Part shown: one piece after another, positions 36,232-41,332 of the stretch
Layout: every line of letters begins with the position of its first letter
Numbering within the stretch: the first letter of the stretch is position 1
Translations under genes and position numbers: made by a program
Notes under the pieces: model-generated
The model's input: the letters and a program-made list of their open reading frames with translations, nothing else
What the model was told of the DNA's origin: nothing
Databases searched by the model: none
Origin: Podospora anserina
Taxonomy: Eukaryota
Assembly: GCA_017654855.1 (NCBI GenBank)
Contig: CM030337.1
Location: forward strand, 1,302,001-1,366,000
DNA: 64,000 nt
Direction of reading: 5' to 3'

Positions 36232-36361
36232 AGGGGCAGCTGATAAGATAGTAGCCAGCGATAAGCGCAAATGTGGGGTAACTCCGGCCAACCAGGGGCA
36301 GCTGATAAGATAGTAGCCAGCGATAAGCGCAAATGTGGGGTAACTCCGGCCAACCAGGGGC
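36232..36361. promoter_or_regulatory. Perfect 62-bp tandem duplication with GATAAG motifs in the bidirectional HGH1/ENP1 promoter
   Basis: The unit AGGGGCAGCTGATAAGATAGTAGCCAGCGATAAGCGCAAATGTGGGGTAACTCCGGCCAACC occurs at 36232 and 36294, followed by AGGGGC. The repeat is certain; the regulatory role is inferred. Confidence 0.75.
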
Positions 36362-36574
36362 GAGGCGCAATCAGTTCACTTCACTACAGAGTACCCCACA
36401 ATAAACTTTTTTTGGGGAGTACCAAAAACCCAGGCGTTCACTGAAAAACCTCGGGTTGAATCCCAGTCGATAAACACCAAAGTGCCGTTCTCCTTGAGAG
36501 GCACACCAACTGCACCGACACCGACATTATTGAACACATACCTCTTGTCGCAATTCAGCATCGAGACTTCCACC

Positions 36575-38253
36575 ATGCCGAAAGCACCCTCCTCTCTCCC
36601 CGGCAAGAAACGCCATAACCCTCTGGCCGACGATTTGGTCGCCACCGGAGTCCTCAAGAACAAGCCCTCAAAGCGAAATACCAAGGCCGAGCCCGAGGAA
36701 GGAGAGAGATATGTCGACTCTCGCGCAAGCAAGAATATTCTGGCGATGAGCCGGGAGCTACTCCAGGAAGATGAGCAGCAAAGCGAAGAAGATAAAGGCG
36801 GAGAACGAGGAGCCTTCGGTTGGAACCCGTCAAACTTCGACAGTCGCGAGCAGGATGAAGAACTTTACGGCGAAGACGAAACCTGGGGGGACGAAGAGGA
36901 GGAAGTAGAGGAGATTGAAGTAGAGGCTGGTGACCTGGAGGTGTTCCATAAGTTCATCAAGCCCTCTATGGAGGACGATCCGCTCCTTACGCATGGCTGG
37001 GATATGAAGGGTGATGGTGGTCAGGAGCAACAACAGGGTGGTGGACAAGATCTGGCCGAAATGATCCTGGCCAAGATCGCTGAACATGAAGCTCAGCAAC
37101 AAGGCGGGTGGCACGACGACAACCCGGCCGACGAGGAACACGTTTTGCCACCAAAGGTCATCGAAGTCTTTGAAAAGATTGGAATGTTTCTTTCTCGGTA
37201 CCGTAGTGGTACGTGTGCCCCCCCTTCCCTGTACATTTTTTTCCGTTTTTTTTAATTTTTTTAAAAAAAAAAGAAAAGAAAGTTGAAAGCTAACCAACAA
37301 CCCCAGGCCCTCTCCCGAAGCCGCTAAAGGTGCTCCCTCAGATCCCCGGCTGGGAAATCATACTCCAGGTCACCCAACCCCACAACTGGACTCATCATGC
37401 CGTTTTTGCTGTCACCAGAATCTTCGTGGCAGCCAAGCCAAAGGTTGTCCAGCGGTTCATGGAGATGGTTGTTCTTGACCATGTCCGTGAGGACATCTCC
37501 GAGAACAAGAGGTTAAATGTACATCTATTTAACGCTTTGAAGAAAGGTCTATACAAGCCGGCTGGTTTCTTCAAGGGATTCCTTCGGCCATTAGTTGCCT
37601 CAGGGGTTACTCTTGTCGAAGCTCGCGTCGTAAGTGGTGTTCTCACACGCGTGTCGATCCCCGTGATACATTCGGCCATGGCCCTCAAAGAGTTGTGCGA
37701 TTTTGCGGCGGAGATGGTTTCATCAAAGAACGAGTCTGTTAGTGCCGTTAACTACCTGATCAAGGTTCTTCTCGATAAACGGTAAACCACCCATATTGTC
37801 TGTCTATCTGTACAACCTCTAACCAGCATACAGATACGCTCTGCCCTGGCAATGTATTGATAGGTAAGGTACCAAACTTCCCTTTTATATATACAGAGAA
37901 TACTGATGTTATCAAATTGTAGCCTAGTCTTCCACTTCCACAGGTATGCTGGACTAGCACGCGATGCCAATACCCACTCGGATCTCCCTGTGATCTATTG
38001 GCAATGCCTCTTGGTCTTCTCACAACGTTACCGAAACGATAGTAAGAATCCCTGATTGGCATCTTTAATGGACGTGAATCTCACAGTCTCAGTTTCCGAA
38101 GATCAGAGGGAGCTGCTCCTCGACTTATTACTCAACGGTCACCATCAAATAGCCCCCGAGATACGCCGGGAGCTTTTAGCGGGCCGTGGCAGGGGTGTTC
38201 CCATTGAACAGCCAACTGTTGCTTTTGATGGCGATGATACCATGATGATGTAG
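36575..38253 (+). CDS. ENP1: Bystin / Enp1, 40S biogenesis factor (5 exons)
   Basis: Motifs RHNPL, LPPKVIEVF...LSRYRSG|PLPKPLK, ATRIF-like AVTRIFV, ALKKGLYKPAGFFKGFL, LLDKR|YALP, QRELLLDLL..H..IAPEIRREL. Includes a 30-nt exon at 37834-37863. Confidence 0.93.
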
Positions 38254-38874
38254 GGTATCGTATCTTGGGATATCATTTTCTCCCTTTGGGAAAGGGCGTG
38301 GAGTTAGTGGAGTTTAAGGCGTCTCAACATATATTCTGAGGGGCATTTTGTCTGGCTATAGCATCTCATTCAGCTGAAAGATGTGGTTAAACTGTGAGGC
38401 TTGATTGACTAGCCGGAGAGTACTTGAAGCGGGTCGCATCATGGCTGAATATGTGCTCTGTGACCTCCTAACACCCCTGAATACCCCTGAATACCCTTGA
38501 ATACCCTAAGATCCAGGTACCAATACATCGCTGTCAAAGGTCATGGCCCTATTGCTCAGCACACTTTTCTTTGAGAGTTATTTTGAAGGATTTGTTGTGT
38601 TGAAATGATTACGTGATGTTCCTGCCTGGGTTCAGGCACACACGTAGTGAGAAGGCACATCCAAGTCTGTGGGGACACGACACAGGTGGCCAGTTGGCTT
38701 TTGAAATGTTCAAGATTTTCTAAACCTGCCCGAACCATAGATCACCTAAAATCTCCCCTCCTACGTCTTTTCTTCTCATTTATATTCGTTATACTTCTGG
38801 ATAGATTGGCTTGAACTAGAACCTGCACCACGCAGCTGACGAGACAAGGATGGCCCCGACGAACTTGGGATGAA

Positions 38875-40678
38875 ATGGATGGATTAACGAACAACACACC
38901 TCTGTCTGCCTCGTCTATGAGCCGAAGCACACAGGAACACCATCATTCGCCAGCTCCAACTCCCGGATCCAGTGTCGACCCTCCTCGGCCGCCAAAAGAT
39001 GGGTATGAGTAGGTCTGGTACCCAGAGGGATACTGGGCGGAGAGGCCGTTCAGTCAATCAGCGACACCGCCTAACGGCAAAGGATCGCCTGATCTCAAGA
39101 TATGGAGACGAAGGAGGCGATCCAGACCGAGCGGCAGCGGCGGCCAAGACAGCGAATCACACACAGCTTCGCCCAAAACCTACCCTCCTGTGCCGCCGAT
39201 TCCCCTACAGACTGCACAAAGCCCCTATCTTTCGGAATGGGCTCATGTCTACTCTCTCCAAAAGCCACACGAATCATCAAGTAATACTATCGAGCAAGAG
39301 GGGGAGTGGCTTGCCCCAAAAGGTCGAGGTTTCTTTCCAAGTCTACCGACGATAGTACCAGCGGCCGAAGTCAAACCTGAACCAGGCCTGGTTCGTTCGC
39401 ACAACTCGTTCGCCTCACTTAGCTGGAACCGACTGAGCAACTCATTGAGAGGCTCACGAGACGTAGGTTATAATTACGGATGGCTGATTTTGGTGTAGTT
39501 GGTGGCTGATTGAGGATTTACACAAACAGAAGAAGCGAAGCGAATCCTCGGAACAAGCCCCTGTCGACGATGGCAAGTTTGATGCAGTCAAGAAGTATCT
39601 CGATCGCCTGCCCGAGGCGGAGAAGCCGGTCCCAGAACAGAAGACCGATGTCGAACCGAACACCAAGGGCCGTCGTGTGCGCTTTGGAAGAGTGCTGTGG
39701 CATCGCCGGAGGTCGACCCGAGCAACGGACAACTCAAACCCGAGCTTGTCAGATGTGGACCGCAAAGAACGACCCAGTATGTGACAAGCACCTTGGTAGA
39801 TGAACTGACATGAAAGCTCCATCTTCTGACATATCCTGTAGGCGGTCCGGCGATATGGTTGACACAGTTTCCAGGCGGAGTAAGAGCCATCCGTCTTTTC
39901 CATACATCCGAACTCAGAAACGCTAAAATTCTCTATAGGAGGCAACTCGTGTCCATACTCCGCCCTACAAAGAAGACACAGTCGACGGACGACCGCGTAG
40001 TCTCTTCTTTGACGTAGCTCGGCCAAACAGTCGACACGATCAAACTCCATCCGAAACATCCTCTACGCGAGAGAAAGTCGGTATCCGAACCTCCCGGTCG
40101 TCCCCATTGAATGTGAAGAGCCGTGGCAGAAGATCGCAACAGAGAAGTTCGGCCAGCGGCGCATCGGGAAGAGGTCTTGGCGGCAGTATCTCGCCGTACA
40201 GAGTTCCATCGCCCCGTAAGGCGAAAGAGGATAGCTCCCCAAGTCGGAGCAAAAGCGGACCTGCAAAAACAAGAGAAAAGACCAGATCTCCCCTTGCCAC
40301 CACCCCAAAAGAAAGCGTCAAAGAGTGGTGGGACGCACCTTTGAGAACGCCAGACACCCCACCTTCTACACCGACACCCCGAACCCGGGTCACGAGAGCA
40401 ACCACGGGGACAGCGGCGATGTTCAAGTTTGATGTGCCGGAGCACTTGCCCAGCAGTCCCATGTGCCCTGCCAATCCCAAGAATCCCAAGTCATTGGGGA
40501 AGGGGGTCTGCGTGGTAAGTTTTGAATCACGGGAAAGGGGATCGAGTGCTGACCAAGGGAATAGTATCATGGGAGACGACGGAGTTCACGTTTTGGGTTG
40601 GCGGGGTCGGATTCTTTGCTTTCTCCGAAGGTTGAGAGGGAGGAGGCGGCTTATGATGATGGGAGTAATTCTATGTAA
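38875..40678 (+). CDS. Uncharacterised fungal protein with one in-frame TAG (39010-39012); candidate A-to-I editing-dependent gene
   Basis: ATG 38875 is in frame with the TAG at codon 46, and the same frame stays open to 39462. Canonical introns 39463-39529, 39777-39841, 39880-39938 and 40515-40565 give WLTQFPGG|EATRVHTPP..EDTVDGRPRSLFFD and PEHLPSSPMCPANP...GVCV|YHGR. Stop TAA 40676-40678. A further upstream exon is possible (branch/acceptor at 38834-38848). Confidence 0.78.
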
Positions 40679-41332
40679 TGCTTGATTGACCACACGTGGG
40701 AATGTTTAAAGAATATTCTGTAGTTCAGTTTCATGGAGCAGCTCCGTTTTTGGATGGCTTTGCTTTAGTGATTACTTTACCCCTACGCGCAGTTGTTCCA
40801 GAGATGCGCATGATTGCCATTGCTGTGTAATTTTTGTTGAACGTTTCATAGTATGGCAGAAACTACAGACAATAGAAAATATCCTGTATTCCGCTTATTC
40901 TACTTTGAGCTTTTGTATTTCTCGGTTGCTCGTCACTAACGAGACTGTTGTTGACTTTTGGGACGGGATTCAGGGGCTGGGAGGAAGGGGCAACCAAATG
41001 TGGGGCCTTTCTTGGTCTCTCGAGCTTGGTCAAAGCTCCTCAAGAACAGACTTTCGATGGCTAAAAGTGGGTCGGAATCTGTCGCGCGGCACGCATCTCT
41101 GACCTCTGTCGCGCATCTTAAACTTCAGCCTCGTCGCCAAACTTACCTACCACCGTGGAGCTCTCTCTTCCTCCCATCTCGATAATTCTTTTTCCGACGT
41201 CGCGCGACACACTTGATCTGAGGAGGTTTTTTTTTATCGATTTTATTCCCGCCGCCGAACCCACGTCGTATCAATTGACTGCTCGATAAATCTTGGAAAC
41301 AAACGAAGGTCGACCAACCACGATTCGCGAAG

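What the first reader, a model, noticed from the sequence alone, without database searches (positions are those of the whole stretch)
38875..40678. Intact gene locked by one UAG at a Trp position: candidate target of sexual-stage A-to-I stop-codon correction
Seen in sequence: the frame from ATG 38875 reads ...PPRPPKDGYE*VWYPEGYWAERP..., with TAG at 39010-39012 as the only lesion I found across five cleanly spliced exons. The aromatic-rich block straddles the stop and reads naturally as GYEWVWYPEGYWAER; I recall this motif from fungal hypothetical proteins but have not verified it. The target A (39011) has U at -1 and G at +1. It lies in the 11-nt loop of a 7-bp hairpin (TGGGTAT 39000-39006 / GTACCCA 39018-39024). 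Established: Sordariomycetes (Fusarium graminearum, Neurospora crassa) perform ADAR-independent A-to-I mRNA editing in fruiting bodies through Tad2-Tad3-Ame1. That editing prefers UAG in loops and restores premature stops to Trp (e.g. PUK1, AMD1). Inference: this uncharacterised gene yields a 45-aa peptide vegetatively and the full protein only during sexual development. Annotation pipelines would likely truncate it or invent a 45-51-nt intron (GT 39003 or 39009 to AG 39053) that lacks a CTRAC branch point and deletes the motif.
Basis: partly seen in the sequence, partly recalled or inferred. Interest (0 to 1): 0.88.

Follow-up and report, generated by a model that had tools for sequence, protein, structure and literature searches.

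The report
Stop-locked Podospora gene repaired by RNA editing
A five-exon fungal gene carries one in-frame stop codon at a conserved tryptophan position, and public RNA assemblies show that stop rewritten to tryptophan, a well-supported but ordinary example of the stop-correcting mRNA editing already known in related fungi.

Summary
A five-exon gene (38875-40678, +) encodes 520 aa with a single in-frame TAG at 39010-39012. A DNA-like run keeps A at 39011. One spliced RNA run has G at 39011 and at 38917. Two other RNA runs keep A. No contig splices over the site. Two transcript-derived 520-aa proteins equal my model except M15V, stop46W and (one of them) I160M. All three are A-to-G changes at U-preceded adenosines.

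The hairpin is real and rare: 3 of 989 TAGs in the window fold this well with the A in a loop.

Of 175 family proteins, 94 have Trp at this position. The 36 models that break there all bear names of Podospora relatives or Hypocreales. A Fusarium-like metagenome contig has TAG at the same codon.

Verdict: premature-stop-correcting (PSC) A-to-I editing, a new member of a known kind. Sexual-stage specificity and strain-matched DNA/RNA were not testable. The Fusarium graminearum ortholog may already be a catalogued PSC gene.

The parts
38875..39462 (+). Exon 1 (codons 1-196), starting MDG... and holding the in-frame TAG
   Evidence: N-terminus MDG is shared by orthologs. RNA contig X1 record 1 covers 38768-39099 without a gap.
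39010..39012 (+). In-frame TAG (codon 46) at a conserved Trp position. A 39011 is the edited base.
   Evidence: A in DNA-like run X8. G in X1 RNA contig (depth 35.7 of 35.7). A in X2 and X3 contigs. W46 in P0002 and P0022. W in 94 of 175 family proteins.
39000..39024 (+). RNA hairpin: 7-bp stem plus 2 inner pairs, 5-nt loop UAGGU presenting A 39011
   Evidence: -12.6 kcal/mol, z = -2.86. (3 of 989 TAGs in the window do as well).
38917..38917 (+). Second A-to-G site (ATG to GTG, M15V), U at -1, in a predicted hairpin loop
   Evidence: G in X1 contig. V15 in P0002 and P0022. Fold.
39354..39354 (+). Third, variable A-to-G site (ATA to ATG, I160M), U at -1
   Evidence: M160 in P0002 only. I160 in P0022. 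A in X1 record 2.
39009..39053 (+). 45-nt pseudo-intron used by the public P. anserina S gene model to remove the stop. Not spliced in the RNA contigs seen.
   Evidence: P0003 N-terminus is reproduced exactly by deleting it. No joint in X1, X2 or X3. No CTRAY motif inside it (read).
39463..39529 (+). Intron 1 (67 nt, GTAGGT..CAG)
   Evidence: Removed in P0002 and P0022, which read ...GSRDKKRSESS.... No contig joint was seen.
39530..39776 (+). Exon 2
   Evidence: X1 record 3, X2 record 7
39777..39841 (+). Intron 2 (65 nt)
   Evidence: Joint 39776>39842 in X1 and X2
39842..39879 (+). Exon 3 (38 nt)
39880..39938 (+). Intron 3 (59 nt)
   Evidence: Joint 39879>39939 in X1 and X2
39939..40514 (+). 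Exon 4, holding the motifs FPGGEATRVHTPPY and FDVPEHLPSSPMCPANPK..GVCV
40515..40564 (+). Intron 4 (50 nt). Retained in the public model P0003.
   Evidence: Joint in X1 and X2. The P0003 C-terminus reads through it.
40565..40678 (+). Exon 5 and stop codon
   Evidence: C-terminus YHGRRRSSR...GSNSM in P0002 and in the P0024 cluster.

Best explanation
This is a functional Podospora anserina-type gene for a 520-aa, mostly disordered protein. Its codon 46, ancestrally TGG (Trp), is TAG in the genome.

The transcript is repaired by A-to-I mRNA editing of A 39011 (UAG to UIG, read as UGG). That adenosine sits in the 5-nt loop of a strong local hairpin with U at -1, which is the substrate form preferred by the fungal Tad2/Tad3 (ADAT) editing system. 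Unedited mRNA ends translation after 45 codons. Edited mRNA gives the full protein, in which Trp46 lies in an aromatic beta-hairpin (EWVWYPEGYWAE), the best-ordered element of the predicted structure. This is premature-stop-codon-correction ('restorative', PSC) editing.

Shown here: the genomic TAG; an otherwise intact, spliced, conserved gene; G at the site in RNA-derived contigs; the hairpin; and Trp in relatives. Inferred: that ADAT is the enzyme, that editing belongs to the sexual stage, and that the lock serves to keep the full protein out of vegetative cells.
For: (1): one TAG in a 1563-nt spliced CDS.

(2), four runs laid.
- X8 (12.7-kb contig, depth 67, no joints) has A at 39011 and 38917.
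- X1 is shown to be RNA by three GT..AG joints. Its 332-nt contig over 38768-39099 differs at exactly two places, A>G 38917 and A>G 39011. Its other three contigs (about 1,365 laid bases) have no difference.
- X2 and X3 contigs keep A at 39011.
- All 3 differences listed across the four runs are A>G.

(3): P0002 (3 contigs, longest 1746 nt) and P0022 (1 contig, 1757 nt) are 520 aa. They are identical to my model except M15V and stop46W (both) and I160M (P0002 only). Each is a single A-to-G change at an A preceded by T.

(4): the hairpin is in the top 0.3% of TAGs in the window.

(5): 94 of 175 family proteins have W at the site. The upstream DPPRP motif is nearly invariant, so both flanks belong to one selected reading frame.

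(6): the beta-hairpin 44-49/53-58 has pLDDT about 90, while 335 of 520 residues are below 50.

(7) Parallel case. The Fusarium-like contig L002 has GAG TAG GTC TGG at the same codon, followed by an open frame. The transcript-derived P0134, in a Fusarium 90% cluster, has W there, while genome-annotated members of that cluster start after the site.

(8) Literature passages read.
- Fungal editing prefers U at -1 and hairpin loops, and corrects UAG in about 71 F. graminearum genes (PMC11156358; PMC10776026).
- RNA-seq showed editing of a stop codon in another Podospora gene (PMC8092012).
Against: - No DNA run from the same strain as X1, or from the sources of P0002 and P0022, was identified, so a TGG allele in another strain is not formally excluded.
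- All runs were Logan contigs, which drop minority variants. Editing level cannot be measured, and 'G only' in X1 means the majority only.
- Run descriptions are coded, so the stage (sexual or vegetative) of X1, X2 and X3 is unknown.
- X8 is identical to the window and may be its source, so it is not independent confirmation of the genomic A.
- The third site (39354) is not in a convincing hairpin.
- The ADAT/AME1 genes of this organism could not be examined, because no genome is held.
Confidence: 0.85

Rival explanations
1. Strain polymorphism. The RNA contigs and Logan proteins come from isolates whose genome has TGG at codon 46 (and GTG at codon 15). The sequenced strain then simply carries a recent nonsense mutation.
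For: itself warns that strains and alleles look like editing. X1 was not matched to a DNA run of the same strain. X2 and X3 show A.
Against: - All 3 differences from the genome are A>G on the sense strand at U-preceded As. The third varies between two otherwise identical transcripts.
- About 1,365 further laid bases of X1 show no difference.
- Six DNA-like runs from three studies hold all 203 sampled words of the stretch. Only X8 was laid, so this is weak.
- Genome-derived gene models of P. anserina S avoid the codon. Models bearing the names of four sibling species leave out all of exon 1 (P0024 shown; P0144-P0146 by name and length).
- Models named Triangularia, Cladorrhinum samala, P. australis and P. 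fimiseda also avoid the codon.
- This pattern is not expected if TGG were the common allele.
Confidence: 0.07
2. Dead or dying pseudogene. The TAG is a plain inactivating mutation and the transcript differences are noise.
For: There is an in-frame stop early in the CDS. Pfam finds no domain. Most of the protein is predicted disordered.
Against: - It is the only lesion in 520 codons.
- All four introns are correctly removed.
- Conserved motifs lie on both sides of the stop across orders.
- The same codon is TAG in a Fusarium-like genome with an open frame after it.
- G is present at the site in RNA.
Confidence: 0.03
3. The stop is removed by splicing of a real 45-nt in-frame intron (39009-39053), as in the public gene model, or is bypassed by translational read-through.
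For: GTAGGT...CAG borders exist and the length is a multiple of three. P0003 uses it. In F. graminearum FgBUD14, both editing and alternative splicing act on a PSC site (PMC11156358).
Against: - None of the 3 contigs covering the donor is spliced there, and no joint was listed.
- It would delete the most conserved and best-ordered motif.
- It has no CTRAY branch motif.
- It is shorter than the gene's real introns of 50-67 nt.
- Contigs cannot exclude a rare isoform.
- Read-through was not tested, but it is unnecessary given G in the RNA.
Confidence: 0.05

Closest known systems
[quoted passage not shown] 2024, PMC10776026; review PMC11156358)
   Same: An in-frame UAG at an ancestral Trp codon in an otherwise intact gene. 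A to G in the RNA. U at -1 and a hairpin loop. A protein rich in disordered regions (50 of the 71 F. graminearum genes have such regions). Independent origins of TAG at equivalent sites in different Sordariomycete lineages are reported there (passages read).
   Different: The species is Podospora. I found no genome-wide editing catalogue for it in the library (searches). Stage specificity and dependence on Tad2/Tad3/Ame1 are not shown here.
F. graminearum PSC69 (Qi et al. 2024)
   Same: The paper describes PSC69 as a hypothetical protein with only disordered regions. Its orthologs are wide in Sordariomycetes plus single Leotiomycetes, and its stop arose in the ancestor of Hypocreales. This family has the same range, is mostly disordered, and its Hypocreales models break at the site.
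   Different: Identity is untested. The main text gives no gene identifiers, supplements are closed, and FGSG_05228 (the F. graminearum ortholog found) gave no paper hit. Several of the 71 genes could fit this description. The paper says the stop arose 'only' in Hypocreales for PSC69, whereas this family also has it in Podospora.
CHE1 of F. graminearum (Zou et al. 2024, PMC11169179)
   Same: A conserved PSC site that causes the same three annotation errors seen here: truncation, a start at a downstream Met, and a fake small intron (compare).
   Different: CHE1 is a C2H2 zinc-finger protein edited in hyphae. It is unrelated in sequence.
Uhera gene of the Podospora Enterprise element (Vogan et al. 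2021, PMC8092012)
   Same: The same genus. A stop codon near the start of the gene is conserved in homologs and is reported as edited in RNA-seq (one passage read).
   Different: It is a DEAD-like helicase gene inside a transposon, at a different locus.

Membership tests
PSC-edited gene (fungal restorative A-to-I editing) | A single in-frame UAG in an otherwise intact, conserved coding sequence | tested here: met
PSC-edited gene (fungal restorative A-to-I editing) | Genomic A but G in the RNA at the middle base of the stop | tested here: met
   (X8 has A; X1 has G). P0002 and P0022 have W46. Caveat: DNA and RNA are not shown to come from one strain.
PSC-edited gene (fungal restorative A-to-I editing) | U at -1 and an edited A in a hairpin loop | tested here: met
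   U at -1 is automatic for TAG; the hairpin is the informative part.
PSC-edited gene (fungal restorative A-to-I editing) | The post-editing residue equals the ancestral or orthologous residue (Trp) | tested here: met
   94 of 175 family proteins have W. 5 of 6 metagenome loci have TGG.
PSC-edited gene (fungal restorative A-to-I editing) | Editing confined to, or strongly raised in, sexual fruiting bodies | not testable with these tools
   Run descriptions are coded. Only this can be said: X1 shows G, X2 and X3 show A.
PSC-edited gene (fungal restorative A-to-I editing) | Dependence on Tad2/Tad3 short isoforms and Ame1 | not testable with these tools
   No genome is held. This needs genetics.
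F. graminearum PSC69 orthogroup | Orthology to the gene named PSC69 | not testable with these tools
   No identifiers in the main text. Supplements are closed. No hit for FGSG_05228.
F. graminearum PSC69 orthogroup | A disordered-only protein, wide in Sordariomycetes plus a few Leotiomycetes, with TAG in Hypocreales | tested here: met
   The description is not unique to PSC69.
Ordinary decaying pseudogene | Several lesions, lost splice sites, relaxed conservation | tested here: not met
Gene with a true mini-intron over the stop | A splice junction 39008>39054 in RNA | tested here: not met
   0 of 3 contigs covering the donor show it. Contigs cannot exclude a rare form.

The most novel reading that the evidence does not exclude
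The same tryptophan codon, in the one well-ordered aromatic beta-hairpin of an otherwise disordered Sordariomycete protein, was converted to an editable TAG independently in the Podospora lineage and in Hypocreales. In both lineages a strong RNA hairpin around the stop appeared with it. The 31-nt folds are -12.6 and -8.7 kcal/mol for the two TAG sequences against -3.2 to -3.9 for five TGG sequences. This would be convergent evolution of a developmental 'lock' on one residue. It may concern the survival-versus-reproduction trade-off gene described as PSC69 in Fusarium.
Probability: 0.5. Interest if true: 0.6.

Novelty: new member of a known kind. Interest (0 to 1): 0.45.

Why it matters
It gives a directly supported case of stop-correcting mRNA editing in Podospora anserina, a model fungus for which I found no editing catalogue in the library searched.

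It corrects public gene models. The strain S model uses a fake 45-nt intron and keeps a real intron. Models bearing the names of four sibling species run past the size of the neighbouring bystin protein; the one I aligned fuses bystin to exons 2-5 of this gene and drops exon 1.

It also shows that the same codon is stop-locked in Fusarium-type genomes. That makes this gene family a compact system for asking whether such locks arise repeatedly at the same residue, and whether the RNA hairpin evolves together with the stop.

Tried and rejected
- No whole genome is held for this window, so ADAT/AME1 genes and other PSC candidates could not be surveyed.
- Pfam gave nothing but a sub-threshold DUF3490 hit on exon 2 (E = 0.11).
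- The protein atlas gave only unnamed clusters, with recognition below the useful level.
- Earlier findings of this scan, searched by sequence: nothing.
- The look-up of sequencing runs listed no holder on record as RNA. The 'RNA?' labels were guesses. X1 and X2 were shown to be RNA only by their splice joints.
- No contig bridges intron 1 or the gaps 39100-39114 and 39433-39529 in X1.
- CHE1 was considered as the ortholog and rejected, because it is a zinc-finger protein.
- Paper searches for Pa_6_3400, Pa_6_3380, Pa_6_3390 and PODANS_6_3400 and for FGSG_05228 found nothing. PSC69 occurs in a relevant sense only in Qi et al. 2024.
- Eight of the 14 metagenome loci (L004-L009, L012, L013) matched only the C-terminal motif. 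The N-terminal motif was not found in them, so they say nothing about the codon.
- I did not run a fold search, because the model is mostly low-confidence.
- I did not use the search of protein representatives or complex prediction.

Full report
**Observation.** The frame opened by ATG 38875 reads MDGLTNNTPLSASSMSRSTQEHHHSPAPTPGSSVDPPRPPKDGYE, then TAG at 39010-39012, then VWYPEGYWAERPFSQ... in the same frame.
- With exons 38875-39462, 39530-39776, 39842-39879, 39939-40514 and 40565-40678, the CDS is 1563 nt (520 codons).
- Introns are 67, 65, 59 and 50 nt, all GT..AG. The TAG at codon 46 is the only in-frame stop.

**The hairpin.**
- The 33-nt fold is -12.6 kcal/mol, z = -2.86, and 2 of 200 shuffles fold as well.
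- Of 989 TAG trinucleotides on both strands of the window, only 3 reach that energy with the A in a hairpin loop.
- 'U at -1, G at +1' holds for any TAG and carries no weight of its own.

**Organism and neighbours.** The closest named protein is an uncharacterised protein of Podospora anserina strain S (P0003).
- The gene upstream on the same strand is bystin. Its ORF in the window carries the residues of PODANS_6_3390 rather than those of sibling species.
- No whole genome is held.

**RNA against DNA.** Runs are coded and all are Logan contigs. Four were laid on 38750-40750.
- X8 covers the whole stretch in a 12.7-kb contig at depth 67, with no difference and no joint. It behaves as genomic DNA and may be the window's own source.
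- X1 and X2 contain contigs that skip 39777-39841, 39880-39938 and the 50-nt intron 4 with GT..AG ends, so they are RNA.
- In X1, the contig over 38768-39099 (332 nt, depth 35.7) differs from the window at exactly two places: A>G at 38917 and A>G at 39011. Its three other contigs have no difference.
- X2 (38750-39047) and X3 (38949-39224, depth 4.7) keep A at 39011.
- No contig in any run shows a joint over 39009-39053.
- All three differences listed across the four runs are A>G. The third is 40517 in an intron-retaining X3 contig at depth 2.6, which may be an error.

**Transcript-derived proteins.** The protein search returned a 520-aa Logan protein, P0002 (3 contigs, longest 1746 nt). Its cluster mate is P0022 (1 contig, 1757 nt).
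- These contig lengths fit a spliced mRNA, not the 1804-nt unspliced gene span plus untranslated ends.
- Both proteins are identical to my spliced model except M15V (ATG to GTG, 38917) and stop46W (TAG to TGG, 39011).
- P0002 also has I160M (ATA to ATG, 39354).
- All three target adenosines follow a T. 38917 and 39011 lie in predicted hairpin loops.
- Two otherwise identical transcripts differing at a third site, again A-to-G, speaks for partial editing rather than fixed strain differences.

**Family and the Trp codon.** The family is wide in Sordariomycetes, with a few Leotiomycetes names. Pfam has no model for it.
- 36 have DPPR but break off exactly there, 3 begin inside the motif just after the site, and 42 lack the region.
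- By the names given, the 36 broken models split into two groups.
  - Six carry names of Podospora relatives: P. anserina, Triangularia setosa, T. verruculosa, P. australis, P. fimiseda and Cladorrhinum samala.
  - Thirty carry Hypocreales names: Fusarium, Trichoderma, Cladobotryum, Stachybotrys, Cosmosporella, Stylonectria, Dactylonectria, Aphanocladium and Akanthomyces. Assigning these genera to that order is from my own knowledge.
- The F. graminearum model FGSG_05228 jumps from MNEPKYLRPMPTV to GYWAERQ. Partial models of F. vanettenii and T. virens begin at GYWAERQ.

**DNA evidence from elsewhere.** Six of the 14 metagenome loci hold the N-terminal motif.
- Five have TGG.
- One, L002, reads like Fusarium (...KSFFKWRNRSTKSASE...) and has GAG TAG GTC TGG at the same codon, followed by a long open frame.
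- A transcript-derived protein in a Fusarium 90% cluster (P0134, contigs up to 1720 nt) has W there. Genome-annotated members of that cluster start after the site.
- The 31-nt folds are -12.6 (window) and -8.7 (L002) for the two TAG sequences, against -3.2 to -3.9 kcal/mol for the five TGG sequences. The sample is small, so this is only suggestive.

**Annotation artefacts.**
It also reads through intron 4.
- P0024 (named P. pseudoanserina) joins the N-terminal part of bystin to exons 2-5 and drops exon 1.
- Its 12-member cluster holds three more over-long models (679-721 aa) under the names P. pseudopauciseta, P. pseudocomata and P. bellae-mahoneyi. I judged these by name and length only. The rest of the cluster is plain bystin entries and fragments.
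- The CHE1 paper describes the same three kinds of error at another PSC site (PMC11169179, passages).

**The protein.** AlphaFold2 on a 28-sequence alignment gives mean pLDDT 51, with 335 of 520 residues below 50.
- There are two ordered patches. One is a beta-hairpin at 44-49/53-58 (pLDDT about 90) that contains Trp46. The other lies around residues 461-488, the CPANPK...GVCVYHGRR motif.
- The stop therefore replaces a residue of the most structured and most conserved element.
- The protein's function remains unknown. The atlas search gave only unnamed clusters.

**Mechanism and comparison with what is known.** I read passages and named sections of four papers.
- The review PMC11156358 states that fungal A-to-I editing prefers U at -1 and hairpin loops, and often corrects UAG. 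It is done by Tad2/Tad3, with stage-specific short isoforms and cofactors such as Ame1.
- Qi et al. 2024 (PMC10776026; passages plus sections 6 and 9) describe 71 such genes in F. graminearum. Most derive from TGG, and TAG arose independently at equivalent sites in several Sordariomycete lineages.
- Their PSC69 is described as disordered only, with orthologs wide in Sordariomycetes plus single Leotiomycetes, and a stop that arose in the Hypocreales ancestor. It is needed for ascogenous hyphae, and its TGG allele is stress-sensitive. That description fits this family, but the identity could not be tested. The main text gives no gene identifiers, supplements are closed, and FGSG_05228 gave no paper hit.
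- Vogan et al. 2021 (PMC8092012, one passage) report RNA-seq evidence for editing of a stop codon in another Podospora gene.
- I found no Podospora-wide editing catalogue, and no mention of this gene, in searches.

**Verdict.** The remaining doubt is mostly a strain allele, because no DNA/RNA pair from one strain was available. Stage specificity and the enzyme are inferred. It is a new member of a known kind, and its Fusarium ortholog may already be catalogued. It is of moderate interest for Podospora annotation and for the question of recurrent stop-locking at a single residue.

Noticed in passing
window 36344-38300 (+) and 38750-39047: The upstream gene is bystin (PODANS_6_3390). An X2 RNA contig of 2389 nt (mean depth 219) runs from about 2.1 kb upstream into exon 1 of this gene and stops at 39047. 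This suggests read-through or overlapping transcripts. It may explain the fused bystin gene models published under sibling-species names (P0024 cluster).
   Followed up: partly
window 40517: A>G at the third base of intron 4 (GTAAGT to GTGAGT, T at -1), in an intron-retaining X3 contig at depth 2.6. It could be an error, an allele, or editing of unspliced RNA.
   Followed up: no
window 38851-38887: Two short upstream ORFs lie in the 5' leader (ATG 38851, 7 codons; ATG 38870, 5 codons, overlapping the main ATG 38875). The X1 contig starts at 38768, so both are transcribed.
   Followed up: no
L002:447-560 (metagenome contig, Fusarium-like): TAG at the orthologous Trp codon, with an open frame after it. 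Some published Fusarium models (F. agapanthi, F. mexicanum, F. anthophilum) continue in a wrong frame after the site.
   Followed up: partly
L004-L009, L012, L013: Eight metagenome loci match only the C-terminal FDVPEHLP..CPANP..GVCVYHGRR motif (58-68% identity over about 40 residues) and lack the N-terminal motif. They may be a second family sharing this short motif.
   Followed up: no
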